The position numbers and the translations under genes are program-made. The notes beneath the pieces are model-generated. The model made no database searches. It saw only the letters and a list, made by a program, of their open reading frames with translations, and was not told where the DNA came from. DNA of 64,000 nt from a virus: IMG/VR virus record IMGVR_UViG_3300045988_159113; one strand, written 5' to 3'. Below, piece after piece: positions 1-54,021 of the stretch; the stretch's first letter is position 1, and each line of letters begins with the position of its first letter.

Positions 1-2599
1 GATAGTACTTTTTATCATACGTTACAACGTCTATATACTTCAAACCTGTAGTATTCCAGCCGTCTCCCGTATATTCCCATTCCTTTTTCGCTTCATTCCA
101 CGTTTCGACTCCGTTATACTGTGATTGATAGCAATATCTCTTGGTAGCATTCCATTCACCTAAAAAACGGATCTGTGAACCAGGCAGACCAGGGCTTCCA
201 TTATTGCCGTCTTTTCCAGGTTTACCATCGTCTCCTTTATCACCTTTCTAGCCAGGCAAGATAGCCGTAATTGTTTTAGTAGCAACAAGTGTAGACTTAC
301 CATTTACCAAACAATAAACGGAAAGATTAAAGCCTTTATTTATAAGAGAAACAGCACCATCTGGTCCGGTTGCTATATTCTGGCTACCGAAGACATTATA
401 TTTATTCTTGTAAATATCATAGGTATACGTTAACTTATTTTCAGATATATTAAGAGTACCATTTTCAGAAGTTGTTGAATAGTCCTTGAAATCCGTGCTG
501 CATTTAATTTCTGAACCATACGAATAATAGCCAAAATAAAAATCATAGTCGTGATTGTCAAGATTGGCGTATCCTGTCAGCGTTCTGTTAGGTGATGCTC
601 CTTTTAACTACGTCACTTTTCCTGCGTAGATTTTAGTGAGTGAAATTTGCAGAGGTTCCTAAGTTGACAACATACGGCCTAGACTATCAACAGGGAAAGA
701 GTCATAGTTTAAATTAAGGACATACTGCGAGCCGTCTTTTGGGTTTACATACATTCCAACGTTTCCGTAGTCGTGAATCTGTCCTTCTATCCAAAGGCAA
801 AACTAAAGGCTATAATTAGTAAACTTAGACTCGTCAATATCAAACGTAAGCGTGAGCTCCTTATTGCTATTCCCAAGTGCAAGCTTCATATTCTATATGC
901 CAGAACCTACAATAGCGTTGGATGTGATAGCATCCAAGAACTAAACATGAACGCCAGAACTCAAACCTATCGTCATGCCCTTGCCATAAATTATATCATT
1001 AGTAAAGGCTACCTGTTCAATCTTACCGTTGATATTTTTATTTACGTAGAACTTCACAGAATACGTGCTGGTCTCGTTCTCGTCATTCTTATCAATACCT
1101 AGGGCTGTTGCAGAACAAAGCAAATCATAAGTCTCACCGTTTACACTCTTGACACTTGTGATAGTTTGCTAAACATTCCCGCTATACTCTTTGCCATCCA
1201 TCTAGAAAGATACCGAAACATTAACGACATCATCACTGATGAGTTCCTGAAATCTATATCCGATAATCTTATAGTTGCCATTTTTAGCATCTGCAAAGGG
1301 CATATCATCATGGTCTTCAACAATAGCCAATAGGCTGGAATCATTAGTGCATGCAATATTTGTAATACGTACATCTGTAACATCACCCTTGCCTCGTACG
1401 TCTGGATAGGTTGCAGTACGCATCTTGATGTTGTTTTTAATGACTTCATCTTTTCCTGTTCCAAACCACATCTCCGGCATTGTTATGTATTCATTCGTAA
1501 GGCTTATGTCGTACTGATTGAATCCAGGACCTACAACAGCTGATTCGCGGACAATACGGATTTCCTGAGACTTCACGTCGATATTGTTATCTGATACTAC
1601 AACGCGGATAACTTCGCCAGTCTTGAAATATTTTTCATTGTATGCTACGTCATTATATACTGCCTGCAGTGTATAATTAGCACCACCCAGTGTTATTTCA
1701 CTCTGAGGCCCGAATTTATAGAGTCCTTTATCACTTCCCTATTCTGTAAGCGTTATAGGTGATTTAACGTACTTATCATTTTCTATGTGAGAATAGTAAG
1801 CTCTAACCCTTGCAGTTGCTGGTATGTCATGCTTCTCGTCATTATACGGATCAATAGCATCAACATCTATAAACAACTCAGGTATTACTCCACTCGATGG
1901 AATGTATAGACTCTCGGGTGATATTTGTATCATATAGGCAAGGCTTGACTTACTCGACTATATGCTCATCGGTAATAATCCACTCGTCGATTCGTAGCTG
2001 TACGTTATTGTAAGTGCAGCATCAACGACTGTGTGCATACCCGCGCCTGCGTTGAACTCTAAAAAGGCAATATAGCAACCTCTCGCAACATCGTAGCCAT
2101 ACGTTAACTTGTAAGTGTTGCCGTCTTGTAATAGTTGCAACTGGAAAGCATCGCCTGGGTCTTGTTCTAACTGTTTCCCTTTATAGATAACAGAGATAGA
2201 TGTTCTTGTCGCGCGCTTCAATACATCATTATCACATTCCCCGTTTGCATTTGTCGGAACAGAGAAAAAGTTATTCGAGGCGTAGACCTAAGTGGCTAAC
2301 TATACAGGAACATCTGAACCACCGCCGCTTTCTGTAATCTTCTGAGTCCAACCCATAGAGAAGTCGCCATTCTTGTACCACCAGTACTCCTTAGGACATC
2401 CTGCTTCTTTTTCGACCGCAATAGTCAAACCCGCTGGAATCTATGACTCTGCAATGCCCAACTCCTTTGTGATCTCATTGACAATAGTGCCATTGGTGAA
2501 TGCTTCATAACTCCAAGGGCCATAGAAAGAGTTCACATTTGGACGCAGAACACCGTCTGCCATAGACATAAACCCATAGTCAAATTGTTTTGATTTCAT
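1..2599 (-). CDS. Tail-fibre-like protein with a collagen-like Gly-X-Y tract. It starts at 2599 and runs off the left edge.
   Basis: ATG at 2599. Track ORFs 1958-2221, 1739-1933, 1202-1576 and 941-1123 share one frame and are separated only by TAG (13 counted). GQKGDKGDDGKPGKDGNNGSPGLPG is encoded near 170-250, with a TAG inside the Gly-X-Y register. Confidence 0.75.
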
Positions 2600-2601
2600 A
2601 G

Positions 2602-3753
2602 TTATGATTTTTTGAAAGTGAAAATATAGTGATTGTTCATGTATGGGATTGATGTTTTGAAATAGATATCTCTAATGTGTCCGGCATTTTTATCAACACC
2701 TTCTACGAACAGATTTTTCACAGACTGCCCTAAGATATCAATAACTTCAAACAAGGTATAGCCAGATGGTACTTTTATACCAAATGAGCGCTTTTTTGTA
2801 GTATCTACGATAATCTGGACACTATCACGTGTTGCGGGGATTAGTTCAGCGTTATCGTAATCGTTGTCATTTACCAGCTTCTTCTGCTCTTCTAATATGA
2901 CAAGCTTGAAATTCTTTTCTGCTGGTGCAATAAAGCCAGCCTACTGAACAGCAATCATAGTCGTTTTATCTGAGTTATATTGCCAGAATTTCACATATAC
3001 AGTTTTTGCTGCGTCTGTATTAGATGATACCTTTAATTTAAAAGATGCCTCTGTCTTGTTCATGATTTCCCAACCTTCCGGTAAGGTGCTAGATAAACTA
3101 AAGCCTACAGCTTGCCCGTTCTTATCCAGACTGTCAACGGTAAAACTCAACACCCCACCCTCTGCCGGGATATTCGCAATGTCTGGCGTAATAGTAAAAC
3201 GTGAAAGGTCAGTATCTGACATATATGGATCTGTACCCTCGATAAGGTTTCCGTCCTCATCGTATTTAAACGGATTAGTAGGCATAGATTCCGAACTATT
3301 CACATTGTGTATATAATAGTAAGGGTGACGATACTATGGCCTAGTGTATGCGTTCCTGCTGATAGTAGGGAATATGTCAGCCGTCAACCTTGTAGCGCCA
3401 TATTCAACATAACGCCCGGCTTCGTCACACCTATTGTTCTTGTCTGTTTTGAAAATACAGGTGCAATTCAAAATGTGTAGGTAATCATCAGGAAGATTTA
3501 CCTGATAAGTTCCACGTCTGAATGGGCTATTCCCGTATTTATCGCACTTTTCAGGCTTTAATATAGCCGTACTTTTCAACACTCGCAAGTCGTCCGAGGT
3601 CTGCTGATCCATCTCGTACGGTGTGTAGCGCTTGTTGATGTACTACTATATACCCTTATTGCTTAGATAGTTAAAATCTGACAGCAGCAACGTCCCTGCG
3701 TTAACCTTATTGAGCTCTGTCAGCACATGCTCGTACAATTGCTTCGATGTCAT
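2602..3753 (-). CDS. Virion-module protein of unknown function (383 aa with TAG read as sense)
   Basis: ATG at 3753, TAA at 2602. ORFs 3334-3612 and 2941-3303 are in frame. There are 4 in-frame TAGs, including a tandem TAG-TAG. The length is divisible by 3. Confidence 0.7.
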
Positions 3754-3770
3754 TTTTCTCTCTTTAAACA

Positions 3771-3809
3771 AAAAGCCACATACACTATTCGAAAGTATAT
3801 GTGGCTTTT
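3771..3809 (-). terminator. Intrinsic terminator after gene 3819-4673
   Basis: On the minus strand, AAAAGCCACATA...TATGTGGCTTTTT is followed by a T-run. Confidence 0.55.
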
Positions 3810-3818
3810 CAAAATTGA

Positions 3819-4673: not shown

Positions 4674-4698
4674 AATTCATTTTTTCATTTTAAAAGTA

Positions 4699-4812: not shown

Positions 4813-7800
4813 TCAAGATAAAGCTGCGATCAATTTGTTATATTGCATCTTTTTATATGCACCTCTATAGCTCACACTATAGTTCAGACTATATCATCAC
4901 TTTCGTGTCGGGCACTCGTGTTTGGATTATTGCTCGCGTTGCTCACCAATTAGTCGTTAGCCTTTATCTGTACATTTAACGCTTCCAGATATTAGGACGG
5001 GATTTTCCACTTTCGGACCTTCCCCGTTTCCACCCGATTTTCTCATTATAAAAATGAGCCTCAAATTTTCTTGATTATATAACGTTTTTTATACATATAT
5101 CCATCTTGATAAGCTTTGCGCATTGAGTTTGCATTTATATTTAGGTTTGGATTTTGTTTTGCAAAATCATTTATAGGCATGATATATTTTTTATTTGTCT
5201 CTGTATCTATTATTAAGCGTGCTATTTTTCTTAAATTAGAAATTTTAGATCTTGTTGCATCGCTTACTATTTTATTTTTATGATACAAACCTATTTTGAT
5301 TTTTGTTTCCTCGCTTACATAATGCCCACGTAATTTTTGGCTCAGAATATTCTTCGTTTCTTCCGTGTGATGTTTTCCAAACATTCCGTTTTCAACTCCA
5401 AATCTTTTGCGTTTGGAAATCCATTCTTTATTTTGTTTGGTTCCAGAACAGTCTGGAGTATAACCAAAATATCTGTTTATACAAAAATCATCAAATTCGC
5501 AAATCTTCAAAAGATGAACTTCATAATCATTAGCATCTTTTCTAGTTCTAAATGTTTTAATTATGATCTTTTGTAATTTATATCTATTTGTTTCTATATA
5601 TGATTTTGTCCAAATAGAACTAGAGCCCATATATGAGTCATTGCAAATATCACATTTGCAACTACGTACCCCGATATAATATCTGTTAGTTTCGGTATTA
5701 TATATCATATATGTATAATGATTCATAAATTGCTATATATATATATTTAAGGATTAAACACAGCTACGCCAGAGTATCCCCATGCGATAAGCTTGCTAGC
5801 GGCTACGGGGCTGCTTACTGCGCCGCCCTGGAGACCAGTCTTGCCGCCTACGCCCAGGATTTCGTTCTGGATGTACAAAAATGTTAATCTTACTGTTATC
5901 AGTAAGTTCAGACTATATCTTTGATATTATTCAATATATTTAAACACAAAACCCTTTGCCATATCAACTTTTCCACTTAGGCATCTGCCAACATTTGTGA
6001 ATTCTTTTCGGCATGATTTTACACTTTCAAAAACTTTTACAAGTTCTCCTTCTTTCGTATATTGCCCAACTTTACGTTTTGCTCCTTTCCCAACTCTAGA
6101 TGTTATATCATGCATTTTTAGTGGGTTTTCAAAATTCCATTGAAAATTACGTATGCATAATCCAGAAGATGCAACTTTGTGTAATCTTAAAGGCGTTAAG
6201 GAAAATCTTTCACAAAAGTTTTCAATACAATCACTATCAATAAAATTGCCATTCAAATCATATCGAAACACAATTCGTTGTAAATCAACATGCAAGCTGA
6301 TGCGTTCGTTGTATGAATAGTAGAATTTGTTGATTGCCGTCTGTTTATAGATGGCGTTTTTGATTTGTTCAGAAGAAACGTCGGCATCTAGTGCTGCTTG
6401 ACTTAAACTACTAAATACATTAATCAAATTGCAATATCTATCAAATTTATAAACCGTTTTGCAAAATGTAGTTATTTTAAAGTCTGCCAAATTTATTTCC
6501 GGATCTGTTGACCATAAAAAATTCAAATAGCTTGTCTTTGTTTTATATGCACTTATTAATGCAGAACTAGTATTTGCACCTACAGATTCTGATGCAATTT
6601 TCACTGATTTGTATTTTGCAATAAATTCGCCATTTAAATCAAACTGGTATATTGGTATCTCAAATTTTAAACTATGGATTCCGCCAGTTGTTTGATTATA
6701 CGTGTCATTTCTATTGATAAACTTATTATCAACAAGGAGTTGCTCAACAAGCAATGCCTCTTCTTCTGTATCGTATATTCCAATAGTGTATCTTTTAAAT
6801 TTACCAAATCCGTACTTTTTTATTGCATTACCGAAATTTGTTTTTGGTTTTCTATAAGTTGATGGCATATTGCTATATATGCCATTACCATAATAATAAT
6901 CAAATATATTTGGATTTGTTTTGTGTACTCCAATATATATTTTGTTGTTTTGTGTGTTTACTGTTAAATAAACAATAAATTTTTTAATATCATTTTCCAT
7001 TTTGATTTTCTGATAAAAATCTATGCTTTTAAAAGCTAGTCGTTGAACGTTATTCATAGGCTTCATATCGCTTGCCTTTTTAGAATATTCGCTGCTGATT
7101 GTCTAAAATTGTATATTTTCAAGCATTCGCATTTATCATTTCTGATTATGCTGTAGCTATACAATTATAAAGAGTTCCCAGCAATTAAGAAAATTAGGAG
7201 ACTATCCGTCAATCTCCGCCCTTCAGTGTGAACATCGCAATAGGAGGCTGTGTGCTGCTCTTGTCTGCTGTCAAATCAAGACAGAGAGCATAGCCTTTCT
7301 CATCATTTGTGTTAGCTATATATCACTATATAGATCAGACTATATCTTGACCTTGTCAAAGGTCGTTCCCATTTCGATTTCTCTAAGTTTTTCACTAGTC
7401 GTTAGACATTACCGCATAATTACGCAGTAATAGCTCCAGATTGTCTTTTTAGACTTTCCTGGATTTAAGGAACAGATCAATGCAGCTCACGCTGCAAGGG
7501 GTCTAAGAATTAAACCATATTCACGGCTGAAGGTACGATCAACAGCAAATGTGATGCTGTTGCCACCAAACTCATACGTATCGAAAGTTGCTCCCACCTT
7601 CACGTAGTCATTGGCCTGCTTAGACCAAAGAAAAGTGTTATCAGCGTGGAAGTGAGCCAAGAAGTCAAACAACTCGGCCTGGACTGAATGCCAGAATCTT
7701 TCGTTACCAAATCAAAACTGATTCAGACTATATCATTGACTTATAAAAAGCCAGGCTCCGTTTCCATTTGTACCCTATATTAGGTAGTCGTTGAATATCA

Positions 7801-10800
7801 GCGCATATTTACGCGCTGTTTACTGCTGATTAGTCGAAACTTTCCAGCAATTAGAAGCCTTTAATCGAGGAGCTTTCACTCCAAGTATCCCTAACTTGAG
7901 ATAAATACGTATTTGTTACCTGTAGGTTTCTGCGCCTTCTCTCCCATCATAGACAGAACAGTACGGAATACCTCCATACTGAGCTTGTTGTATGCATACT
8001 TGGAAGCGAAGCGCTCAACCTGAGGAATAATCAAAAATATTATCACATGCCGTTTATGCATGCCTCTCACACTTCTTATTTGTGTAAGTTTAGACTATAT
8101 CTTCATCCTTCGCGGATGGGTGCTGTTCGTGGGTTTCCCTAGTCGTTACACTTATCGCTCGGTATTCTCATCTCAGAGTTCACCGATTTAAGCACCTTTT
8201 CATTAATTTATCACTAAATTACGGGGCATTACTCTACCCTCACCTATATAAATCAAACTGTTATCTCTACGTCTCCATAGAGTTCAGACTATACCTTTAA
8301 CTCATTTTCTTATACTTCAAAATATACGGATCATTTACCATTGGTTTTCTCAATATGCGTATCTGTTCCTCTGTTAATTCTTTCGTGGAACTATACAACT
8401 TGACGAGATTTCCTTTTAGGTCATACTGCTCAACTTTCCGAGCAACCGGCGCGTTTGTTGCGATCCATTTATCCATTTTATCATAAGACCATTTATAGCC
8501 TCTGCATGCGCGGTTCATCTTTATCGCGCGAATGATCTTTCCTGTGCTGATGTTTGGCGTTCCCTTAGCTGCTTCTTTAATAGAATCAAAAGCTGCATCA
8601 AACTCACCTTTCAATGTGTACCGGTAAACAGGCACTGTAGTTGTCAATTCTATCGCTGACTTTTTACCAAGCACCTTTCGTATATCCTCAGATACACGCA
8701 TGAATCGGTATCCGCTACATGTTGAACGCATTGATACAGCACGAGCTATAGCATCTTTTGGTATATCAAGCTGAGCAGCAGCAGATGGGATATCACGGTA
8801 TGTATTGATAAGTATGCCATCCCTGTTGTACTGTGCAATAGCACCACGTGGCATGTTGGAATAAAGATCAACATCTATAGACTCATCAAAAGAGAGATAG
8901 ACATCTTTACAGTTTGTGCGTGTATTGATGCATATGATCACGTGTTCTTTCGATACATGCAAATCATCAGCTGCTTCATCAACGCTATCCCACTTTCCGA
9001 CATGACCACCAGAGAACGTGAACGCGTTGACTCTTTGTCTACTGCAAATGCTGGGAGATGCAATCGAGTTGTAGTTGTCGGTTCTCTTTATAAAATCCTC
9101 GTTGACAATCAACATATAGAAATCAGTTGCATCATTGATATTGTTAAATTCTTTTAACGTTATCCTCTTGAAAGCATTGATTCCATGACGCTGCACCGCA
9201 CTCTGAAGTTGTGTCTTGCTCTTGTTGTATGATTCCGGTAGATGTATATCTACACCATCGCCAAGATAACCATCAAACACTTCTGGATCATTCACCTTGT
9301 GAATACCTACGTAAATCTTGCCATTATCAAGATTAATTGTTTCAAATACTATAAATTTCATGAGTTATTCCCCGTTTCCGCTTTCGCGTATTATAAAATT
9401 ATCAGTCGTTGAACTAATACAAATCTTTACTTGTATTTAGCTGCTGGTTGTCCGTTAGAGTTTCCAGCAATTAAAGGAATCTATTTTTACTAATCTCGCA
9501 ATTAGCCGACCCATTTATATATAGGTCTGTTTGTGTCGGGATCGAAAATGGTAGGCTTACCATTGGCCACAATAAAAGTAGACTATATCATTAGTTTTCA
9601 CTATTTCCCGTTTCCGTCAAACTTATCCTGTACTAGGTAGTCGTTGAACGAATCAAAAGAAAACTTTTGATTTCGCTGCTGATTAGCTTGCCGCTTTCCA
9701 GCAATTAGAGAAATTTTTCGTGGACGTCAATCCATCCACGTTGCACTTGTTAAAGAGAAGCAATAATTCAATATGTTGCCATATTGTTTAGACTATATTT
9801 TGAGATCTTGATATCTCTGCGCTCTTTCACTACTTACTCTAAAAATAGATAGTCGTTGAACGTATCGCGATATATTTCGCGATTTCGCTGCTGATTGTCC
9901 TTTTAGGATTTTCCAGCAATTAAGCGCATTTTATAATGGCATCTCCTTCTTTTTAAAAAAAACTTCACGTCGATTCCATTATTTCTGACATACATGAAAG
10001 ACTCCATAAGGGCCTTCTCCTTCTTGTCTAATCTGTAAATTGTTTCTGACAACTTTCCGTTATCCTTACCCTGTCCGATAGAAATGAAAGTATCCTCATG
10101 TGCAGCATAGAGGCTAGAGAACGAATCATCACAACGGTGTGTGGTGATGTAGTTCCGCATCTTGCTGATATTCAATGTGTTAGCTTATAGTTTCCTATAA
10201 GATCAGACTATATCATTAGGTCATGAACCTAGTTTCCGTTTCTAAAAATACGGCTATTGCCTAGTCGTTGAACCAAATTTCGCACTTGCTAAATTTTGGC
10301 TGCTGATTATCCTTTTGGATTTCCCAGCAATTAGAAAACTTTTTTCTTTAGAAATGTCTAAAGGAGCAATATCTCACTCTGATACTTTACATACAATTTT
10401 GTTAATCAATATGTTTCCATATTGTTCAGATTATATCTTGGTTTTTCAAACCTATTCCGTTTTAAAAATTACGTCATATTGACTAATCGTTGAACATTAC
10501 GCGATAATTATCGCGTATTTGCTGCTGATTACCATTTTAAGGCTTCCAGCAATTAGAAATATTTTAAGAGGGCATATGTTGCATTTTCCCTCTTCATGCA
10601 TTTCGGGCATTGCATTGCTCAAGAACCTGGTAGTCATACCAAGCTGGCAACCTGACTTGTCGAGAACCGAACTGTAGTCGTTATCGACCAAGCGAACGAT
10701 CACCTTCCAGTAGTTATCACTAACGCGAACAGGACGTGCTACAACGAAGCACTGCTGACCTGTAGCGTCAATCTGGAAGATATCATACTTTTCATAGTAG

Positions 10801-12474: not shown

Positions 12475-13542
12475 TCATACATCTAAATCGTCGATCGACA
12501 AGGCTTTGTCTGTATTCTTTGCCTTGGGCTTGACCACGACTTTGCTTTCAGTTGACTTTTTAGTTCCCTTTGATATCCCCTGCTCATACCCAGCTCTGTG
12601 GGCCTGTGCAATTTGCGACTTGTAATAATCACTGATGCTATTGATGACATCCTCGCCACGAAGAGCGAACCATGCCATACGAACCAATGTGTCTGGATCA
12701 TTCAATGCTTTTGACATATAATTGACTCCTGCTTGGTCGTGTCCAGTGATAAATGTGTACAACTCGTTCATATCGTCTTCGGACATTGCGACGTCCAAAT
12801 CTCCGATACTTGTAAAATCTTGAATTGAATTGGCGATACCACCAGCGAACTGTCTATACATCTCCTGTTGCTGTTGGGCCTCCAAAGCTGCATCTTGGCG
12901 ATTACGGTCATCTTCAAGTTTCTTGTACTCATCCCTGATTCCTGCGATCTCTTTCGCGAAAAGATCAGGATCGGATGTTGCCCTATCTAAGGCAGTCGCG
13001 AGTTCGTCTTCCGTGATGTCCTTGACACGCGCCTGCATATCCAACACGTAGAGTTCCTCATCAGTCAGATCGTCTACTGTATAGTGCGGCTGCTGTGATT
13101 GCATGATCTTATCAGTAGCAGCACGCGCTCCTTGATTATGCAACATTGCTGCATACTCTGCGGGGCTCATACCAGAAAGGCGTAATCTGTTTATCAAATC
13201 GATCTCATCATCATCAAGATCATCTTCATCGCGTTCTGTCTCACGAGGTCCATCTTTAAGGATTGCGAACTGCTCCTCACGGCTCAGATCGTTCCAGTCT
13301 ACCTCCTCAATCTCACCATCATCATTTGCGATCTTAATCTTGCTGGGATCATCAATTCCCTTGCTCTTCAGGACATCTGTAATAACGTCCCCATCATCTG
13401 AACCTTCGCCATTATCTGGGTCTGGTTCACTTGTCCAACCAGGTGGAGTGGTCTGTTCTCCTCCGTTCTGCTGGTTATCTTCTCCTCCGTTGTCAAGATC
13501 ACTGAGATCGACAACGTCCAAATCGTCAATTGTTGCTGCCAT
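12475..13542 (-). CDS. Scaffolding-like acidic coiled-coil protein
   Basis: Intact 355-aa ORF that is very D/E-rich. The IDDLDV motif occurs at both termini. It lies directly upstream of the putative capsid gene and ends in TGA. Confidence 0.6.
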   Translation of the reverse strand: MAATIDDLDVVDLSDLDNGGEDNQQNGGEQTTPPGWTSEPDPDNGEGSDDGDVITDVLKSKGIDDPSKIKIANDDGEIEEVDWNDLSREEQFAILKDGPRETERDEDDLDDDEIDLINRLRLSGMSPAEYAAMLHNQGARAATDKIMQSQQPHYTVDDLTDEELYVLDMQARVKDITEDELATALDRATSDPDLFAKEIAGIRDEYKKLEDDRNRQDAALEAQQQQEMYRQFAGGIANSIQDFTSIGDLDVAMSEDDMNELYTFITGHDQAGVNYMSKALNDPDTLVRMAWFALRGEDVINSISDYYKSQIAQAHRAGYEQGISKGTKKSTESKVVVKPKAKNTDKALSIDDLDV

Positions 13543-34831: not shown

Positions 34832-35165
34832 TACTTACTAGATCTTTCTGTCCTATATGGTGTGTGCTGTGGTCTATCGGGCATGGCATATGACGCTCGA
34901 ACATATCGGTCTTGTATCCTGTGTAGAATTTCGTATCAGTCAACCGGCGACCATGAAGCTCTTTTTCTAGATATTCGAGAAACTTATCATCGTCTAGCTG
35001 CGCGCATATATGGAGAGGGTGCTCTGGATCATTCAATCCAAGCACAAGATCAATAGCTCCACCTGGTAATCTGTGAATATTCAAAAGGCCAACATAACAC
35101 TTGCCGTATACTTTAAAAATAGTTTCTAGGATCGCTTGAGCGAACTTGTCCGTAGCTGTAGTCAT
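34824..35165 (-). CDS. Hypothetical protein (113 aa)
   Basis: Intact track ORF. Its TGA overlaps the next ATG. Confidence 0.6.
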   Translation of the reverse strand: MTTATDKFAQAILETIFKVYGKCYVGLLNIHRLPGGAIDLVLGLNDPEHPLHICAQLDDDKFLEYLEKELHGRRLTDTKFYTGYKTDMFERHMPCPIDHSTHHIGQKDLVSNG

Positions 35166-39118: not shown

Positions 39119-40435
39119 TTAGTTAAAAATTGCATCTCTCCCACTATTTGTTATATTGTAATTTTTGTAGAATTGATTATAGTTTCGTTGTAGTGCATTA
39201 TTATACTCTTCAGTGTCAAGCTTATCTTTACCGAATTGTTTGATAAATGCATCACGGAACTTTGCTGAGTATAATCTGTGCAATTTCATTGAACTTATGC
39301 TTCCTTTAGCATGATATCTCTATCCTTCATCTATTATTGGCTATGCTACCTATTTGCCTACATTAGCCCAGAAATTACTAATGGTTATTTGTGGCTATGG
39401 TTTAGCGTCAGCTTGCATAGACCCATCAGTTCTCCACCATCCCATGTTTCCGTTTTTGTCAAGGTATCTTCCGGTATTATAATATTTTGTGCCATCTTTA
39501 GCAGTTATTTCAGAAGTACCGTCTCCTAGAATTCTTTGACTCCATCCTTGGCCAAATATTCCGTTAAATTTTCGCATAGTCTCATTGCCAAATTTACCAT
39601 CAGCACCAGTTCCTACTAGACCTTGCCATGTAGTCAAATCATTGCCTTGCCAGTTGTATGATGGAGTCCATGCGGATCTCCGACGTGACGCATTACTCTA
39701 TGGCGCTGGCTATGCATTTACCTATGTGTTAGCCGTTTGCTGTTTCCAAGTCGGCTGCAACTTCTGAGCATATGCTGTCATAGCGCCAGGCGTATATCCT
39801 CCCTGATACTATTGAAGCATATTCTAAAAACTCTAAGAGATAGGTGTTTCTGTAGGTTTCTGCCAATTTCCATGGTCCCAATTTGCGCGAGATGCATTTT
39901 GATGTTCTGAAAAATATTCATGAACACGTCTGTTTGCATCGGCTTCAATAGTTCCAGCTTTAAAATTGTTATCACTATACATCCCAGCATTTTGTCGGCC
40001 ATTACGAATCATATCCATAGCATTGCGTCTATTAAACTGCTAGCCGCCAGAGAAATTGCTGGCCATCTGCATATTCGCGCCATTCCAAACAACAGCATCC
40101 TATCCAAGAGCACGTAAATCATTTTTAAGTCTACGCCTCTTACCAAGACCTCTATAACGGCTGCTGTTCAGATTTATAATTTTCTGATTGTTATAGAAAT
40201 CAGGATTCCTATTCTATGACTACTGATCAGCTTGCTGCTCATGGTCGTTTACTGTCCCTTGCTGCTATCCAATAGGCTTGTATGTTTCTGAACCTGTATG
40301 TTCTGGTTTCTATACTGCAGCAGGCTGCCTAGTAAACGACAAAGAAGATGGGTCAACTGTAGACCAATCAGGCATAGTATAGTTTAATGTAGTTCCGTCA
40401 TCACGATACGGTACACCCTTAAAATCTTCAGCCAT
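39119..40435 (-). CDS. Gln-rich protein with a peptidoglycan-binding-like motif (438 aa)
   Basis: ATG at 40435. ORFs 39833-40018 and 39395-39637 are in frame, with about 16 TAGs. Length 1317 nt. TWQGLVGTGADGKFGNETMRKF resembles a PG_binding_1 domain. Confidence 0.7.
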
Positions 40436-40436
40436 A

Positions 40437-42971: not shown

Positions 42972-43610
42972 ATGGTACATCTCTTAAAAAAGGGATCCGG
43001 CATTCATATAAAAAAATCACATGAGGGAAGATTTACGGAATATTGCGGAGGCAATGTGACAGAAGAATGCATACGGAGAGGGAAAAACTCCCCGGATCCA
43101 AAAATACGAAAACAGGCAGTCTTTGCATAGAATGCCAGAAAATTCAAACACCAAGACGGCGGCTCCATTTATGGAGCACCTTAGATATAGACAAATGGAA
43201 ATCTCTCGCAGCAATGGAAATAGCAGCAAGAGATGGCTGCGCAAAATTTCAACCAAAGCATGGAGTGGGAAAAACAGCTTGATGAAATGAAGCGCATGCA
43301 AGAATCACAGGCTCTTGGTAAAAGCATAGGAAATACTGTTGGCTCTTTAGTTGGTACCGGTATGCAAGCAATTGCACAAAATATCAGAGAAAGAAGAGCT
43401 GGTAGCGAAGAAGGAGAAGTGAAAGGAAATTCTCAACAGCCAACAGTACCATAGGCTACGACATCATATCAAATGCCATAGCTTCCAACATCATTGCAAG
43501 GAATTAACAACATGATGAGAAATCCTTTCGCAATTCCACAACAAATGCCTACTATGATGAACGGTGGCAATATAGAACGCTTAATCAGAAAAATAGACAG
43601 ACATGGATGA
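42972..43610 (+). CDS. Gln-rich late protein (212 aa)
   Basis: ATG at 42972. ORFs 42948-43130 and 43233-43454 are in frame. 6 TAGs, TGA at 43608. Confidence 0.65.
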
Positions 43611-44868
43611 ATTGTTCTCTACATATAAGGCCGTTGAGCCGATGCTAGTATAGGAAGAAATAGAAATCCCAGATTTAAATACAACATCAAGATATGATAC
43701 TTTTCTTGAAACATTAAATAGGTACAGAGAAGCATAGGGTCAAAAATAGCCAGAAGCATAGAAACAAGATGATAACCAAAACTGGTTCACTAATACAAAA
43801 ATAAGACAGACGACACCTTCTGTCTCAAACCTCGCAACAGCTATTGACTATACAACAAAAGACCTATAGACGATGTTGAATGAATAGGGGCTTGATAAAT
43901 ATATAAGAATAACAAGTGGATTCCGAGATCATAATGTAGGAAAAGCTGGCAACAGATCAAATCATAGAAAGAAAAACAAACACGGACATTCTATGGCTTA
44001 TGATATAGCTCCAGCATAGGGAGAAACTTTTGATTCTATATATTAGAAAATGAAGGAGAACCCTGCAATGTAGCAATGGTTATCTCAAAATGGTTTTAAT
44101 ATAAACGACGAAACAGATGCTGCAACATTAAGACGGACAGGAGGAACTGGTGCTCATTTTCATATTGGACCTGATAAGTTTAATATTAGAAAAGGATAGT
44201 CTGGTTTTGATACGTCAAATTTGTTTTCGGCATATAAAGCTGTAGAGTTACCTATTAAGCCAATCATTAAACCGGTAATTCCAAACATTGAATATAATAG
44301 TACAGGTATGCCAGATATATATATTGGTAGCAACACGCCAACTTAGCAAAGCGAATAGAAAGCTGATGATGACCAGTCGTGGTTCTCAAATACAAAACTA
44401 AGAAAAACGCCAACTGCTCCTGTAGTATTACCAAAGTAGAAAGAGAATGAGGCTGCAATAAATAGTCCAACTTTTGATTCTGATTTTCAAAAATTCGGAA
44501 CGTCAAAAATATTCTCTGATCACAAGAATTTCTGGAAACGTCTTGCATTTTCCGAATCAAGCCTAAATTCATAGGCTTCAAATAAAAGCGGAGCTTTCGG
44601 ATATTTTCAGATAATGCCACAGTCTAGAACTGGGGTTGACGTAGCATCTCAATTTAAAGATGCGGAAAAATTAATGACATCACACATGTCATTAATAAAC
44701 GACGAAGATCGCAAACTAGCACAACAAAAAGGAATAACAGAAGAAGGACTGATGGCTGGCGTTTGGCTAGGAGGTCCTGGAGGAGTAAAAAAAGCACTGA
44801 GAAGTCAGGGAAACGCAAAAGACTCGAATGGTACATCAGTGATGAGTTACATGAAAAAGTTTTCGTAA
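43603..44868 (+). CDS. Two-domain peptidoglycan hydrolase (M15-type metallopeptidase plus lytic transglycosylase)
   Basis: The ATG overlaps the upstream stop. It is in frame with ORF 44614-44868, with about 14 TAGs. Motifs: ITSGFRD..NRSNH..GHSMAYDI...GAHFHIG (M15-like) and FSESSLNS-Q-ASNKSGAFGYFQIM (SLT E-S motif). Confidence 0.7.
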
Positions 44869-47027: not shown

Positions 47028-47045
47028 TCATTCGCTCATTACTAG

Positions 47046-47121
47046 TAGGGACGCCAGGATTCGAACCCGGTCCAAGAGGGTTAGAGCCTCCTGTGCAATG
47101 AACCACATACACCACATCCCT
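47046..47121 (-). tRNA. Amber-suppressor tRNA, anticodon CUA (reads UAG)
   Basis: Minus-strand sequence AGGGATG TG GTGT-atgtggttcatt-GCAC A GGAGG-CTCTAAC-CCTCT TGGA CCGGG-TTCGAAT-CCTGG CGTCCCT A. The fold has a 7-bp acceptor stem, a 4-bp D stem with GG in the loop, and a 5-bp anticodon stem. The anticodon loop has U33-CUA-A37, and the T-loop is canonical. CCA is not encoded. Confidence 0.85.
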
Positions 47122-47130
47122 ATTTAGTAA

Positions 47131-47502: not shown

Positions 47503-47535
47503 ATTGTCATTGTTTATTGGTTACATTGCAATCAT

Positions 47536-47590
47536 AATATAAAAAATGCCAAAACCCAAATTTTTTGTGTTAATTTAGGTTAAGGCATAT
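47536..47590 (-). terminator. Imperfect long hairpin plus T-run
   Basis: On the minus strand, ATGCCTTAACCTAAAT...ATTTGGGTTTTGGCAT is followed by TTTTT. Confidence 0.4.
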
Positions 47591-47904: not shown

Positions 47905-47910
47905 TATTTA

Positions 47911-49850: not shown

Positions 49851-49918
49851 AATGTAAAAAATTAATTCAGCAACAATTATAGTATTATTGTGTATAATTT
49901 TATAAATTTATATTAAAT

Positions 49919-51601
49919 ATGGCAAACGAATATAGAGCGAAATCATTCGCAGATGCTTTCAGACAAGCACGGAGAGATATCGGTAGTGGGGGGCAAGCGG
50001 TTTGGATCCGACCAAACGGCACACGCATGGTATTCAACACAAACCTCAAAGAAGAGATACCTGTAAATCAAACCGTTTATTCTCCTCTTCTTTCTAGCGA
50101 AGATGAAAGATTGGCGGAAAGAAGGTACAAAGAAGCTTTGGAATCATCAAGAAGAGCTTTGGCTTCAGAAATCGGTATTAATTTAGTACAAGGCAAAAAA
50201 GTGCCAACAAAAATGATACCATAGCTTGATGTACAAAACAAAGAGGTTGGAATATACCAAATTAATCCAAACGCAAGCTCCGAGGAAACAAGATGGATCA
50301 AAACACTTCCATAGATAGATGTGATTGCACAACGTACACATCACAAAATGAGAAAAAATTCCCAAACAGGAGAGCTTGAGTCTGCATAGGAGAATTTTTA
50401 CCCAGTTAAACCTGATTATGAAATTGGAAAAGGAAATAGTGTTCATTATAATTTCAACACAGGTGAATATGAGATGATAGATAAAAACGGAGAAATTCTC
50501 GCAACATCACCAGATGGTTCTGTTCTATCTGATCCTTCACTCTGGACTCAATCTCATAATGGAAGAAATGGAGACATCGAATAGTCAAAATAGACATTCG
50601 AATAGCAGAAAGCAGCAGAATAGATGGCCAACATGAGAAGAGACGAAGAAAATCACACAATCAATAGCCCATTACATATTCTTACAGATGAAAACGGGAA
50701 TATAGTTGTAGATAAAAATGGCAAACCTATATATAACGGATAGCTTACTACAGATCAAGTAGTAGATGGAATGAATTATGGCAAACAAATTTTCGTAGAT
50801 GCTGTTTAGAATTTTGGGCTCGATGGAGTCAATCACGCCATATTAGGCGGACTCAAAATGGCAACAGATGGAGATTATACATCAGACGATTATCTGAACG
50901 GATTCTTAGCATCCAAAGATCATGTAGGAGGAGCAGGAGACTTTTTCGAGGTAGAAGGACCAAAATCAAGATTCGCTTTGAATCTTATAAACCCAACATC
51001 ATTATTCACACTCGGGGCTACAACAAAGTTCAAATTGCCAGAGATGACTGTCGTAACAACTAAAGGATAGCCAATTCGCCTCAGTGTTCCAAATGCGCCG
51101 GCATCAATGTATAGAAGAGGAATGCAAGCGAATGAAGGAATGGGAACAATAACAAGAAATGTTGGACGAGGAGGACAAAAGTCTTGGGTCTAGCATGGAG
51201 GCAAACATGTTGCTGGTACAGGTTCACATATCGAGGTAATACCAACATAGAGTACAGGATTAATGTACACTCCTGGCGAAATTAGTATGCGACCACTCAC
51301 AACAATGACATATGATCTCTATCCAAAGAGGATATGGGAAACAAAACCAATCATACCAGCACTTAACGTGGAATATGAAGGTGGGCCAGAATCAACAGGC
51401 TATCAGTATGAAAGAATGTTAGGCAATCCTGATGAAGTAAACTCTTCGGCAGCACCAGATGTAGCAATGCCAGGAAATGTTACTGTAAACGGATCAAATG
51501 ACAAGATAAACAGAGGAAGATCAAACGGAAGAAGACTCCTCAAGAGAACAAAAGCAAGAAAATCAAGATAGGAAACAGGAAATATCGACATAAGTAATTA
51601 A
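49919..51601 (+). CDS. Large late protein of unknown function (560 aa)
   Basis: ORFs 49919-50224, 50858-51070 and 51263-51571 are in frame, with about 13 TAGs. Length 1683 nt. TAA at 51599. Confidence 0.7.
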
Positions 51602-51603
51602 TT

Positions 51604-52131: not shown

Positions 52132-53026
52132 TAAAGCACAGACAACAAAAAAACTGCTTACATCAAAAGCAGGAAAGAAAGGAATCCAATGGACAGTTGG
52201 ATAGGTGAAGAAAGGAATCACCTGGCTTGGAGGAGGACAAGGTAAAGTAAATCGGAAAGCAGAATAGTATGTCGAAAAACAAGCTGAATCACTAAAGAAA
52301 GCAAAATCAGCATAGAGTAAGGCAACACGCAATCTGAATAAATCAATAGAAAGCGTGACTGGAACAAAATGGTCAAGCCGAAATGGATATCCTCAAATGA
52401 CAGGAGAATTGGCAGAAATGAAAGCTGCAAGAGATTTGCTTGCTAGAAATACAGCAAGAGAAGCAAAAGCATTCAAGAAAATGTCCGGTCTTGCAAGACA
52501 AAAAGCAGAAGACGAAGTACTTAGATCTGGACTCACACGTGCAGGGATCGGAGGCGCAGCACTACTTGCCGGTATACCTGTATATAACGCTCTGACAGAT
52601 GAACCAGAAATGTATGATGCTAGTAATCTGCAAGCAATTGAACCAGAAGTGATTGAACCCGAAACATTACCTGGATCAGGAGTAGAAAGCCTCAGATATT
52701 ACGCAAGAGATACAGACCCATACTGGAATAATGGGAACCCTATCATACAAAATTCAGATGGCACACTCTTCATAAATGGACAACAGTTCGACGATAGAGA
52801 TAAAGCCGCAGCAGCTGCAGCAGGATTCGATAATGTGTTCGATTATAAAGCGGCAAGAGCAGGACTGAGCAGCAGAGAAGAAGTTGCGGAATTACAACGG
52901 CAACTAGGATTGAAACCCGATGGACTGTTTGGAATAAATACAGAAAAAGCATACTACGATTATATGAGATCAAATCCACAAGAAGTGGCAGATCGATATA
53001 TATCTGACGGATGGATACAAGTGTAA
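52124..53026 (+). CDS. Protein with a C-terminal peptidoglycan-binding-like motif (300 aa)
   Basis: The ATG at 52124 is in frame with ORF 52355-53026. 3 TAGs. It contains VAELQRQLGLKPDGLFGINTEKAY. Confidence 0.65.
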
Positions 53027-53032
53027 AAATAA

Positions 53033-53061
53033 AAGGAGACCAGAAATGGCCTCCTTTTTTT
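53033..53061 (+). terminator. Intrinsic terminator
   Basis: AAAGGAGACC-agaaat-GGCCTCCTTTTTTT. Confidence 0.6.
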
Positions 53062-53079
53062 ATGCCCCCCCCCTGGGGT

Positions 53080-54021
53080 TTATTTACGAAAAATATTTCC
53101 TCCCCTCTTCTAATATAAAACAAACGGCTGTAAAAATTCGACTTGACCAGACTATCCAATTCTAGCACTTCCAGGATAAATCCGCTTGTTCCAAACATCT
53201 ACAAACGCAGCCTTCTACTAAGGACTAACAGCAGCCTTCCACATGTCATATAAATCCTTATTATGAACAGCCGTATTGTTTAGCTCAGTGAAAGCATTTC
53301 TCGAAAATCTTAGTGCATTACCATCTCTAGCACCCTGTCTGACAATAGCAGCATAACTGTCAGGGCTTAAACCAGATTTGTGAAGACCCTTGTCCGCCAC
53401 ATCTTCCAATAAGACTTTCACAGCACCACGATGAGAACCCTGGTTCTTCATGAAACTACCCAATGGAGCAGATGCAAAATCTCCGGATAAATAAGTACCA
53501 GGACGTACAATCTCACGAATAGTAGACCAAAAAGTACGCATGTCTTCCTTCGGAATGACATTCCCCAACTCATCTAAAACCTTACCAGTGTCCTGCTTAT
53601 ACTCAACACCAGGAGGAGTCAAAATGACATTCATCGTACCGTTCTCATATGGAGTAGCTGATAAAGTGCCCCAACCAGCCTTTCCACCATTAGATGGAGT
53701 AACACCATAACCAGGTAATACCTTACCACTAGAAGGAAGAAATACTTTCTTCCCATCCGGCATTGTTATCAAACCATCAAGAGTACGCTTCGGGCCAGAT
53801 TGAATCATATGCCTAACACCAGGAATATCACCAGGCTTCGCAATATCACGCCAAACATAACGCTTGCCATCAAATAAAAACTTGTCTGCCTTAGACTAAG
53901 TAGAAACCCATTTCTCATAATCCTGCAAAGCAGCACGCTGAAATTTGTTTAAAGAGCCATAAGCTCCCTTAGATAAACCCAAAATCTCACGAAGAGAGCG
54001 AGAAACTATTTTCGAATTCAT
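53080..54021 (-). CDS. Hypothetical late protein (313 aa)
   Basis: The ATG at 54021 is in frame with ORF 53218-53808 through 1 TAG. The ORF 'end' is a tandem TAG-TAG, followed by 44 more codons (2 more TAGs) to a TAA at 53080. Confidence 0.6.

What the first reader, a model, noticed from the sequence alone, without database searches (positions are those of the whole stretch)
1..54021. UAG is read as a sense codon (Gln) across the late genes, and the matching tRNA(CUA) is encoded in the window
The supplied ORF track is shredded between 1 and 54 kb. Neighbouring fragments are almost always in the same frame and are separated only by TAG. Reading TAG as sense fuses them into about 60 long, tightly packed genes. 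These include a portal of 2193 nt with about 12 TAGs, TerL with about 12, a fibre of 2667 nt with 10, and a 1317-nt gene with about 16.

My hand count is roughly 180 in-frame TAGs. Many TAGs fall in Q-rich runs (QQ, LQQ, KQK). Every merged gene ends in TAA or TGA, often with ATGA or TAATG start-stop overlaps. A canonical cloverleaf tRNA with anticodon CUA lies at 47046-47121 (-).

Stop-codon reassignment (genetic code 15) with suppressor tRNAs is established for some gut phages, including crAss-like ones. This window therefore fits a known phenomenon. It is the key to annotating the region, and any standard-code pipeline will miscall it.
Basis: partly seen in the sequence, partly recalled or inferred. 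Interest (0 to 1): 0.8.

Follow-up and report, generated by a model that had tools for sequence, protein, structure and literature searches.

The report
Gut phage reads UAG as glutamine
In this stretch of a large crAss-like gut phage genome the stop codon UAG serves as a glutamine codon about 180 times in virion and lysis-type genes, and the matching suppressor tRNA is encoded alongside; the call is correct, but this behaviour is already documented for this phage group.

Summary
ARAGORN and Rfam find one tRNA, with anticodon CUA, at 47045-47121 (-). Reading TAG as sense raises coding density in 1-54021 from 56% to 87%; the TGA-sense and TAA-sense controls reach 64% and 72%. It gives about 178-185 in-frame TAGs and no in-frame TAA or TGA.

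The quoted genes check out:
- portal, 2193 nt, 12 TAG
- fibre, 2667 nt, 10 TAG
- the 1317-nt gene, 16 TAG
- TerL, 12 TAG

TAG means Gln. In 27 standard-code portal homologs the conserved TAG columns carry CAA or CAG. Gln is the best fit over 693 aligned pairs. In near-identical relatives TAG is exchanged mostly with CAG or CAA (45 of 64 cases; 208 of 208 in the portal).

The lineage matches the published "Zeta" crAss-like group: 145-192 kb genomes, code switching, suppressor tRNAs and many introns. The phenomenon is therefore already known.

Two corrections apply. The shredding at 4.8-12.4 kb comes from at least 10 group I introns in the capsid gene, not from TAG. The two TerL halves are separated by a 197-nt compact intron that 98%-identical relatives lack. 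That intron belongs to a covarying RNA family that matches no Rfam model.

The parts
47045..47121 (-). Suppressor tRNA with anticodon CUA. It is class I, with a 7-bp acceptor stem (AGGGAUG/CGUCCCU), a 12-nt D loop containing GG, a 3-4-nt variable loop and a canonical T loop.
   Evidence: ARAGORN; Rfam tRNA at 47 bits; cloverleaf minimum-free-energy fold. Its D stem, anticodon arm and T arm match tRNA(CUA) of crAss-like phages that RefSeq annotates as tRNA-Gln, and a genuine tRNA-Gln(CUG). The exact core occurs in 3 IMG/VR contigs of 143-197 kb.
1..54021 (.). TAG-recoded block: 61 crude ORFs, about 178-185 in-frame TAGs (27% of all putative Gln codons). Only TAA and TGA serve as stops.
31866..34058 (-). 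Portal protein gene, 730 aa, 12 in-frame TAGs.
   Evidence: PHROG 6547 portal, E 1e-48. 3247 homologs, with full-length coverage. TAG columns carry CAA/CAG in 27 standard-code homologs. TAG is exchanged only with CAG in close relatives.
36609..37592 (-). TerL exon 1 (ATPase half, 328 codons, 5 TAGs).
   Evidence: PHROG 6681, profile positions 49-308 of 758. It aligns to residues 20-342 of uninterrupted homologs.
36412..36608 (-). 197-nt compact intron without an endonuclease gene, group I-like, splitting TerL. Boundaries are good to within 1 nt.
   Evidence: Absent from the 98%-identical relatives L004 and L006, where the flanks are contiguous. A U|...G| boundary is possible. Fold z-score -2.99. 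No Rfam hit. The family shows strong covariation.
35113..36411 (-). TerL exon 2 (nuclease half, 7 TAGs).
   Evidence: PHROG 6681, profile positions 332-726 of 758. It aligns from residue 343 onward of homologs.
19587..22253 (-). Tail-fibre gene, 888 aa, 10 TAGs.
   Evidence: PHROG 3904 tail fiber protein; TAG count.
39119..40435 (-). Gene of unknown function, 438 aa, 16 TAGs (the highest count in the window).
   Evidence: no family hit.
43603..44868 (+). Gene with a C-terminal SLT/transglycosylase-like stretch, 421 aa. It has 14 TAGs, so TAG supplies 48% of its Gln codons.
   Evidence: PHROG 3310 transglycosylase. Pfam SLT at 20.9 bits, just under the 21.3-bit cut-off. Counts.
49919..51601 (+). 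Gene of unknown function, 560 aa, 13 TAGs.
53080..54021 (-). Last recoded gene (313 aa, 5 TAGs). It marks the edge of the recoded block.
4813..12437 (-). Major capsid protein gene: about 470 codons in 11 exons spread over 7.6 kb, with at least 10 group I introns. It has only 1 TAG.
   Evidence: tblastn with the intronless 473-aa homolog from MT835470.1. Six Rfam Intron_gpI hits above the gathering score, four sub-threshold hits and two nhmmer hits. Last exon.
12475..13542 (-). Acidic 355-aa gene just upstream of the capsid gene (scaffold-like, by inference). It is TAG-free: 0 of 20 Gln codons.
   Evidence: Binomial P = 0.002 under the pooled TAG fraction. No family hit.
54022..64000 (.). Block compatible with the standard code. 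No in-frame TAG lies downstream of the likely true starts, and no gene needs TAG as its stop. It includes an HTH/DnaD_N-like gene at 62951-63769 (-).

Best explanation
The window comes from a large crAss-like phage of the published 'Zeta' group. In its virion and lysis-type gene block, UAG is a glutamine codon (genetic code 15).

**Mechanism.**
1. The phage encodes a tRNA with anticodon CUA. This tRNA has a tRNA-Gln-type body.
2. In the infected cell, the host's glutamine-charging machinery is inferred to load it with Gln.
3. The charged tRNA competes with host release factor 1 at UAG.
4. The roughly 180 in-frame UAGs in 1-54021 are then read through, and full-length portal, terminase, fibre and other proteins are made.
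5. UAA and UGA remain the only terminators.

**Timing.** Genes at 54-64 kb, the intron-borne endonucleases and the small genes flanking the tRNA contain no UAG. They can therefore be translated before the suppressor accumulates. This fits the published model in which recoding delays the expression of late genes.

**Shown here:** the TAG positions, their Gln equivalence, and the presence and fold of the tRNA.

**Inferred:** charging with Gln, competition with RF1, and the timing.
For: **Translation runs through TAG.**
- TAG-sense translation raises coding density from 56% to 87% and triples the number of ORFs of 300 aa or more. The TGA-sense and TAA-sense controls do not.
- There are 178-185 in-frame TAGs and no in-frame TAA or TGA.
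- Portal homologs align across all 12 TAGs at full length.

**TAG equals Gln.**
- In 27 distinct standard-code portal genes, the conserved TAG columns (41, 473, 499, 631, 660) carry CAA or CAG in 24-27 of 27. Those loci gain nothing from TAG-sense reading.
- Over 693 aligned pairs in 11 genes, Gln has the best likelihood (-2.45 per site; next best is Glu at -2.73).
- Between portal genes with more than 85% codon identity, all 208 TAG differences are with CAG.
- Over 18,083 codons compared with close relatives, TAG is exchanged with CAG 38 times and CAA 7 times, out of 64 exchanges. CAA is two substitutions away from TAG.
- Counting TAG as Gln raises Gln content from 3.1% to 4.2%. TAG clusters with Gln codons exactly as CAA and CAG do.

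**The tRNA.**
- It is confirmed by ARAGORN and Rfam.
- By alignment score, its nearest neighbours are crAss tRNA(CUA) annotated as tRNA-Gln and genuine tRNA-Gln genes.
- TAG-recoded relatives carry a tRNA(CUA) upstream of the portal on the same strand. None of the standard-code relatives scanned (L007-L063) does within 10 kb.

**Literature.** The same features are described for Zeta crAss-like phages (PMC7886860, PMC12386605). Code 15 has been verified by metaproteomics in crAss-like phages (PMC9523058). The late-gene timing model is in 10.1101/2021.08.26.457843.
Against: - There is no peptide evidence for this phage.
- The amino acid carried by the tRNA was not determined. Its acceptor stem (AGGGAUG/CGUCCCU, A73) and 12-nt D loop differ from the other Zeta and crAss suppressors. 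Ranking by percent identity against other isotypes was noisy.
- About 30% of TAG exchanges with close relatives involve non-Gln codons: GAG 9, TGG 4, AAG 2 and others. These are compatible with ordinary amino-acid replacements but do not prove Gln.
- In two genes (27581-27868 and 34061-34831) the only TAG lies 7 codons before the TAA or TGA. It could act as a leaky stop there.
- The early/late assignment rests on gene content only. Most genes have no family hit.
- The host and its genetic code are unknown.
Confidence: 0.93

Rival explanations
1. UAG is read through, but as an amino acid other than glutamine. Candidates are Glu, Lys or Trp, or pyrrolysine, which is the label ARAGORN prints for a CUA anticodon.
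For: - ARAGORN labels the gene 'tRNA-Pyl'.
- At variable sites TAG columns align to E, D, K or G.
- Some exchanges with close relatives involve GAG, TGG or AAG.
- The acceptor stem differs from that of the other Gln-type suppressors.
Against: - At conserved columns, standard-code homologs carry CAA or CAG almost exclusively.
- Gln is the best fit by likelihood among all 20 amino acids.
- In the portal, 208 of 208 close-pair exchanges are with CAG.
- CAA, which is two substitutions from TAG, is exchanged 7 times.
- The tRNA lacks pylT hallmarks. It has two bases between the acceptor and D stems, a 12-nt D loop with GG and a canonical T loop. The pylT hallmarks are recalled from established knowledge.
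- No Pyl genes appeared among the families searched.
Confidence: 0.03
2. The host itself decodes UAG as sense, or supplies the suppressor. On this reading the phage merely matches its host's code, and the phage tRNA is an accessory rather than the cause.
For: - Nothing in the window identifies the host or its code.
- Some recoded crAss-like genomes have no detectable suppressor tRNA (PMC7886860).
Against: - The TAG-free 54-64 kb block, the endonuclease genes and the genes flanking the tRNA are what a phage entering a standard-code cell would be expected to have.
- Sister lineages 56-63% identical in the portal use the standard code or possibly TGA recoding. This argues that the code is a property of the phage.
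- Among the relatives scanned, tRNA(CUA) occurs only in TAG-recoded ones.
- Published work predicts standard-code Bacteroidota hosts for crAss-like phages (10.1101/2021.08.26.457843).
Confidence: 0.04
3. The in-frame TAGs are damage: a decaying prophage, a defective genome, or sequencing or assembly error. On this reading the genes are not expressed as full-length proteins.
For: - The TerL and capsid genes are also interrupted. At first sight this looks like decay.
Against: - Only one of the three stop codons occurs in frame, about 180 times, against zero TAA or TGA.
- The same pattern recurs in dozens of independently assembled relatives, with 5-36 TAGs in the portal.
- TAG positions are conserved, or are exchanged with synonymous Gln codons.
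- The other interruptions are structured introns with splice-compatible boundaries.
Confidence: 0.01

Closest known systems
Zeta-group crAss-like phages (Yutin et al. 2021, PMC7886860; Zeta family paper 2025, PMC12386605)
   Same: - The portal and TerL are distantly related to those of Crassvirales.
- Relatives have genomes of 100-197 kb.
- TAG recoding to Gln is concentrated in the virion block.
- A suppressor tRNA(CUA) is present.
- Sister branches use the standard code or possibly TGA recoding.
- The capsid gene is split by several group I introns with endonuclease genes and carries almost no recoded stops.
   Different: - The capsid gene here has at least 10 introns. The published Zeta example has 4 introns in that gene, and up to 14 introns in a whole genome.
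- The TerL intron has no endonuclease gene, so the endonuclease-based search used in that paper would have missed it.
- The tRNA's acceptor stem and D loop differ from those of the other Zeta suppressors retrieved here.
- Phylogenetic placement in Zeta was not computed.
Code-15 crAss-like phages validated by metaproteomics (Peters et al. 2022, PMC9523058), and the late-gene and lysis-timing model (Borges et al., 10.1101/2021.08.26.457843)
   Same: - TAG is read as Gln in structural and lysis genes.
- Other regions stay compatible with the standard code.
- The suppressor tRNA is phage-encoded.
- TAG use is uneven between genes. The highest use is in a transglycosylase-like gene (TAG supplies 48% of its Gln codons).
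   Different: - Those genomes are about 100-105 kb crAss-like phages of other groups.
- There are no proteomic data for this lineage here.
- No release factor or aminoacyl-tRNA synthetase gene was seen in the window.
- The intron endonuclease genes here are TAG-free, whereas Borges et al. report a preferentially recoded intron endonuclease in Agate phages.
Classical amber suppressor supE, the E. coli tRNA-Gln with anticodon CUA (from general knowledge)
   Same: A Gln-type tRNA with a CUA anticodon inserts Gln at UAG in competition with RF1.
   Different: - supE is a point mutant of a host tRNA and suppresses only partly.
- The tRNA here is phage-borne and serves about 180 obligatory sense positions.
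- The phage avoids UAG as a terminator altogether in this window.
Pyrrolysine decoding of UAG (pylT/pylS)
   Same: A tRNA with anticodon CUA; ARAGORN prints 'tRNA-Pyl' for it.
   Different: - The tRNA architecture is canonical, not pylT-like.
- TAG columns align to Gln, not Lys.
- No pyl genes were found in the window.

Membership tests
Phage stop-codon recoding, genetic code 15 (TAG read as Gln) | Many in-frame TAGs in conserved essential genes, with homology continuing across them | tested here: met
   Portal with 12 TAGs, TerL with 12 and fibre with 10. Portal homologs cover 99-100% of the length.
Phage stop-codon recoding, genetic code 15 (TAG read as Gln) | TAG positions correspond to Gln codons in relatives that use the standard code | tested here: met
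   CAA or CAG at conserved columns in 27 standard-code homologs. Gln is the best fit over 693 pairs. TAG is exchanged with CAG or CAA in close relatives.
Phage stop-codon recoding, genetic code 15 (TAG read as Gln) | The other two stop codons stay terminators, and TAG is not needed as a terminator | tested here: met
   No in-frame TAA or TGA in the merged genes. Stops are TAA 38 and TGA 22 in 1-54021, and TAA 10 and TGA 9 beyond. Two ambiguous TAGs lie near gene ends.
Phage stop-codon recoding, genetic code 15 (TAG read as Gln) | A suppressor tRNA with anticodon CUA is encoded by the phage | tested here: met
   The same tRNA is present in 3 related IMG/VR contigs.
Phage stop-codon recoding, genetic code 15 (TAG read as Gln) | The suppressor tRNA is of Gln identity and is charged with Gln | tested here: inconclusive
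   The body resembles tRNA-Gln and crAss suppressors annotated as tRNA-Gln. The acceptor stem and D loop differ. No isotype model or aminoacylation assay was available.
Phage stop-codon recoding, genetic code 15 (TAG read as Gln) | Peptides with Gln at UAG positions | not testable with these tools
   Needs virion proteomics or metaproteomics, as done for other crAss-like phages in PMC9523058.
Phage stop-codon recoding, genetic code 15 (TAG read as Gln) | Part of the genome remains compatible with the standard code (early genes) | tested here: met
   In 54022-64000 density is the same under both codes, and no TAG lies downstream of likely starts. That these genes are early is inferred.
Zeta-group crAss-like phages | Portal and TerL homologous to those of Crassvirales but deeply divergent | tested here: met
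   All classified tblastn hits are Crassvirales portals at 21-27% identity. PHROG portal and TerL families match.
Zeta-group crAss-like phages | Genome of about 145-192 kb | tested here: inconclusive
   The window is only 64 kb. The 97-99%-identical IMG/VR contigs are 174,850 and 197,477 bp.
Zeta-group crAss-like phages | [quoted passage not shown] | tested here: met
   At least 10 introns in the capsid gene, four GIY-YIG/NUMOD endonuclease genes and one TerL intron.
Zeta-group crAss-like phages | Placement inside the Zeta clade in a TerL or portal tree with reference genomes | not tested
   The reference Zeta genomes (OLRF01000054 and others) were not retrieved.
Pyrrolysine system | pylT-type tRNA (small D loop without GG, one base between the acceptor and D stems, atypical T loop) together with pylS/pylBCD genes | tested here: not met
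   The tRNA has a 12-nt D loop with GG, two bases between the stems and a UUCGAAU T loop. No pyl families were hit. TAG columns are Gln, not Lys.
Group I introns (for the 197-nt TerL insertion and its family) | Nested helices with a P3/P7 pseudoknot, supported by covariation | tested here: met
   Nine helices, 92.8% of cells paired, 38 of 56 pairs with compensatory changes. The covariation score is 0.493, against 0.161 for shuffles and at most 0.135 for slid controls.
Group I introns (for the 197-nt TerL insertion and its family) | The 5' exon ends in U and the intron ends in G; precise removal restores the reading frame | tested here: met
   GGU|UAACC...UUAUG|ACA gives Cys-Gly-Gly-Thr-Ser, as in the intron-less relatives.
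Group I introns (for the 197-nt TerL insertion and its family) | Match to the curated group I model (Rfam RF00028) | tested here: not met
   No hit at E<=1 on the TerL copy. No hit at E<=0.01 in 20 loci carrying the motif, some of which hold clear family members such as L122 and L166. One family member in the window (8028-8189) overlaps a sub-threshold RF00028 hit of 41 bits.
Group I introns (for the 197-nt TerL insertion and its family) | Self-splicing activity | not testable with these tools
   Needs in vitro transcription with GTP, or RT-PCR across the junction.

The most novel reading that the evidence does not exclude
The recoded block carries a second, less charted layer of gene interruption. 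The capsid gene is broken by at least 10 group I introns. TerL is split by a compact 183-197-nt intron with no endonuclease gene. That intron belongs to a strongly covarying RNA family for which no Rfam model gave a significant match, and it is present or absent between 98%-identical genomes.

TAG use is also graded between genes. It is nearly absent from the capsid gene, the scaffold-like gene and the intron endonuclease genes. It supplies close to half of the Gln codons in a transglycosylase-like gene. UAG decoding may therefore act as a dosage and timing control rather than a simple on/off switch.
Probability: 0.3. Interest if true: 0.55.

Novelty: already known. Interest (0 to 1): 0.25.

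Why it matters
**Practical value.** Any standard-code annotation of this region will break about 40 genes into fragments. Even a code-15 pipeline will still miscall the capsid and terminase genes, because introns split them.

**Biological value.** The window adds one more well-documented instance to a published phenomenon. It gives clean codon-level evidence, in the form of TAG exchanged with CAG or CAA between near-identical genomes. It also shows that TAG use is uneven inside the late block.

**Most useful by-products.** These are the extreme intron load of the capsid gene and a compact structured intron family that current RNA libraries do not recognise.

Tried and rejected
- **Same-frame continuation test.** I asked whether a stop after a 40-codon open stretch is followed by another open stretch in the same frame. 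It did not separate TAG (25%) from TAA (17%) or TGA (21%), so I dropped it.
- **Family searches.** PHROGs and Pfam gave no hit for most genes, so the 'late' and 'lysis' labels rest on a few genes only.
- **tRNA ranking.** Ranking the tRNA against other isotypes by percent identity was noisy, because class II tRNAs scored high through gaps. Only the alignment score put the Gln types on top.
- **Genome-wide tRNA-Gln D-arm scan.** It returned a mixed bag of 31 hits, including likely contaminants and phage contigs binned as bacteria. It shows only that this D arm goes with Gln anticodons.
- **First viral scan for the TerL insertion family.** The gap range was too narrow and it found nothing. A simpler motif found 113 stretches.
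- **Rfam on the insertion.** Permissive searches did not identify the TerL insertion.
- **Split TerL.** I considered that TerL might be expressed as two polypeptides. The insertion carries a TAA right after exon 1 and an AAGGAG-N4-ATG in frame with exon 2. I rank this below splicing because of the structure, the covariation and the U|...G| boundaries. It is not excluded.
- **Base after TAG.** It does not differ from the base after CAA or CAG (p = 0.77), so there is no evidence for a read-through context.

Full report

Yes. ARAGORN finds exactly one tRNA in the window, at 47045-47121 on the minus strand, with anticodon CTA. The Rfam tRNA model matches 47046-47121 at 47 bits against a gathering score of 29. 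The minimum-free-energy fold is a cloverleaf: a 7-bp acceptor stem, a D arm with a 12-nt loop containing GG, a CUCUAAC anticodon loop, a short variable loop and a canonical T arm.

Treating only TAA and TGA as stops gives 80 crude ORFs, 61 of them in 1-54021. Those 61 hold 185 in-frame TAGs, or 178 after removing spurious ORFs that lie over introns. So are the individual genes:
- portal 31866-34058, 2193 nt, 12 TAG
- fibre 19587-22253, 2667 nt, 10 TAG
- 39119-40435, 1317 nt, 16 TAG
- TerL, 5 + 7 = 12 TAG

With a greedy non-overlapping ORF call, coding density in 1-54021 is 56.2% under the standard code. The median ORF is 103 aa, and six ORFs reach 300 aa. With TAG as sense, density is 87.0%, the median is 222 aa, and 23 ORFs reach 300 aa. 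The controls give 63.6% (TGA sense) and 72.3% (TAA sense). In 54022-64000 the code makes no difference.

**2. Which amino acid?**

The portal (PHROG 6547, E 1e-48) has 3247 database homologs that align over its whole length. Database proteins may already have been translated with code 15, so I went to the DNA.

Eighty IMG/VR loci with a portal gene were fetched. Their portal genes carry between 0 and 36 TAGs and no TGA or TAA. Twenty-eight have no TAG, and their flanks gain nothing from TAG-sense reading, so they use the standard code there.

In the 27 distinct sequences among these, the window's TAG columns behave as follows:
- At the conserved positions 41, 473, 499, 631 and 660, they carry CAA or CAG in 24-27 of 27.
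- At variable positions they carry E, D, K or G.

I extended this to 11 genes near the portal, giving 693 aligned pairs. The residues opposite TAG fit the substitution profile of Gln best (-2.45 per site). Glu is next at -2.73, and every other amino acid is worse.

The cleanest evidence comes from near relatives. Between portal genes with more than 85% codon identity, all 208 TAG differences are with CAG. Over 18,083 codons compared with the 98%-identical contigs, TAG is exchanged with CAG 38 times and with CAA 7 times, out of 64 exchanges. CAA is two substitutions away from TAG. The remainder are GAG (9), TGG (4), AAG (2) and singletons.

Counting TAG as Gln raises Gln content from 3.1% to 4.2%, and TAG then supplies 27% of Gln codons. 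TAG also sits next to other Gln codons as often as CAA and CAG do: 13.5% against 13.3%, with a baseline of 7.8%.

**3. The tRNA**

ARAGORN's label 'tRNA-Pyl' is only its name for a CUA anticodon. The molecule has none of the pylT peculiarities.

Its anticodon arm, variable loop and T arm match three kinds of tRNA:
- tRNA(CUA) genes of the Crassvirales phages cr7_1 and cr53_1, which RefSeq annotates as tRNA-Gln
- the same type of gene in other crAss-like records
- a genuine tRNA-Gln(CUG) of Streptomyces phage Stella

By alignment score, the closest of 30 reference tRNAs are these suppressors and Gln tRNAs.

TAG-recoded relatives (L033-L040, L048, L057, L058) carry a tRNA(CUA) 8-9 kb upstream of the portal on the same strand. 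None of the standard-code relatives among the 60 loci scanned (L004-L063) carries one within 10 kb.

The window's tRNA shares their D stem, anticodon arm and T arm. It has a different acceptor stem and a D loop that is 4 nt longer. Its exact core occurs in only three IMG/VR contigs, all close relatives. Gln identity of the tRNA is therefore likely but not proven.

**4. Where TAG is and is not**

No gene in the window needs TAG as its stop.

The 54-64 kb block has TAG only upstream of likely true start codons. It contains an HTH/DnaD_N-like gene.

Inside the recoded block, TAG use is uneven:

| Gene | TAG among Gln codons | Note |
|---|---|---|
| acidic gene upstream of the capsid gene | 0 of 20 | P = 0.002 |
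| capsid exons | 1 of 16 | - |
| glycosyltransferase at 18103-19590 | 0 of 15 | - |
| four intron endonuclease genes | 0 of 33 | P = 3e-5 |
| transglycosylase-like gene at 43603-44868 | 14 of 29 | - |
| gene at 49919-51601 | 13 of 28 | - |

The tRNA itself sits among small TAG-free genes (46230-47583). This agrees with the published idea that genes compatible with the standard code are translated first, and recoded ones only once the suppressor is present (10.1101/2021.08.26.457843). Timing was not measured here.

**5.

Part of the shredding has nothing to do with TAG.

Rfam finds six full-length group I introns on the minus strand between 7316 and 10633, and four more sub-threshold ones. An intron-less 473-aa capsid homolog from MT835470.1 aligns to the window in 10 collinear pieces from 12437 down to 5750. 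Two of the pieces are micro-exons of about 6 and 9 codons. A probable last exon lies at 4830-4813.

The capsid gene is therefore about 470 codons spread over 7.6 kb, with at least 10 introns. Four of the introns carry GIY-YIG/NUMOD endonuclease genes.

TerL is also split. Its two halves match PHROG 6681 positions 49-308 and 332-726. They abut at residues 342 and 343 of uninterrupted homologs. In the window they are separated by 197 nt that the 98%-identical relatives L004 and L006 lack.

Boundaries that follow the group I rule are possible, with the exon ending in U and the intron ending in G. They restore Cys-Gly-Gly-Thr-Ser, as in the relatives. L004 carries a related 183-nt insertion at another TerL site.

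The element folds better than shuffles (z = -2.99) but matches no Rfam family. A 21-nt motif from it occurs in 113 IMG/VR stretches.

Twenty-three diverse copies align into nine helices, including a P3/P7-type pseudoknot. 92.8% of cells are paired, and 38 of 56 pairs show compensatory changes. The covariation score is 0.493, against 0.161 for shuffles and at most 0.135 for slid controls.

A sequence profile of this family also hits two of the capsid-gene introns. One of them overlaps a sub-threshold Rfam group I hit. I read the family as a compact, IA-like group I intron class without an endonuclease gene. Splicing is untested.

**6. Comparison with what is known**

All classified relatives of the portal are Crassvirales, at 21-27% identity. 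Close relatives have genomes of 175-197 kb.

Yutin et al. 2021 (PMC7886860) describe the Zeta group of crAss-like phages with all of the following:
- genomes of 145-192 kb
- TAG read as Gln, or TGA read as Trp, or the standard code, on different branches
- recoding mostly in late genes
- suppressor tRNAs
- an 'unprecedented' density of introns, including a capsid gene in five pieces with no recoded stops

The 2025 Zeta paper (PMC12386605) adds tRNA(CUA) and tRNA(UCA) suppressors. Peters et al. 2022 (PMC9523058) verified code 15 by metaproteomics in two crAss-like phages.

The finding is therefore correct and useful for annotation, but it is a known phenomenon in a known group.

**7. Verdict**

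- Novelty: already known. Interest is low to moderate (0.25).
- The residual novelty lies in the by-products: the intron load of the capsid gene, the compact intron family that Rfam does not cover, and the graded use of TAG between genes.

Noticed in passing
window 4813-12437 (-): The major capsid protein gene is split into about 11 exons by at least 10 group I introns. Six pass the Rfam gathering score: 7316-7522, 7708-7913, 9559-9743, 9769-9968, 10184-10385 and 10407-10633. Others are sub-threshold. Two exons are only about 6 and 9 codons long. This exceeds the published Zeta example, which has 4 introns in this gene.
   Followed up: yes
window 36412-36608 (-); L004 ~7030-7212: A 197-nt insertion without an endonuclease gene splits TerL. 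The 98%-identical relatives lack it, and one of them has a related 183-nt insertion at another TerL site. The family is widespread in IMG/VR (113 motif hits) and strongly covarying, with a P3/P7-type pseudoknot. It matches no Rfam model.
   Followed up: yes
window 36441-36608 (-): The TerL insertion places a TAA right after exon 1. It also places AAGGAG-N4-ATG in frame with exon 2. Unspliced mRNA would therefore encode two half-terminases. A genes-in-pieces reading is not excluded.
   Followed up: no
window 5061-5726, 5927-7132, 8297-9361, 10949-12055 (-): Four GIY-YIG/NUMOD homing-endonuclease genes lie inside or beside the capsid introns. Together they have 33 CAA/CAG codons and no TAG downstream of likely starts, unlike their recoded neighbours. 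Borges et al. report a heavily recoded intron endonuclease in Agate phages, so this differs.
   Followed up: partly
window 12475-13542, 18103-19590, 43603-44868: TAG use is graded inside the late block. It is 0 of 20 Gln codons in the acidic gene upstream of the capsid gene, and 0 of 15 in a glycosyltransferase. It is 14 of 29 in a transglycosylase-like gene. In close relatives, some genes that are TAG-free here (g37, g46, g48) do carry TAG.
   Followed up: partly
L055:103-192, L056:303-391: Two TAG-recoded relatives carry tRNA(CUA) genes of 89-90 nt. These have a 16-nt insert just 3' of the anticodon loop. It could be a tRNA intron or an unusual arm.
   Followed up: no
L043, L077: Two relatives with TAG-free portal genes gain about 10 points of ORF coverage when TGA is read as sense. 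This suggests TGA recoding in sister lineages, as published for the Zeta group.
   Followed up: no
window 1-54021, in-frame TAGs: The base before an in-frame TAG is A in 49% of 178 cases, against 24-33% before CAG or CAA. The base after TAG shows no bias (p = 0.77).
   Followed up: no
window 16180-17187 and 18103-19590 (-): Two glycosyltransferase-family genes (Gly_transf_sug/TcdA-like and GT2) lie in the middle of the tail and fibre region.
   Followed up: no
L100 (DXLM01000001.1, 186,052 bp, labelled Bacteroides sp. MAG); L119 (Prevotellaceae RUG112 contig): Contigs filed as bacterial genome bins carry phage-like tRNA arrays with the same Gln-type D arm. The 186-kb contig has the size of a Zeta phage genome and may be a phage binned as a bacterium.
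   Followed up: no
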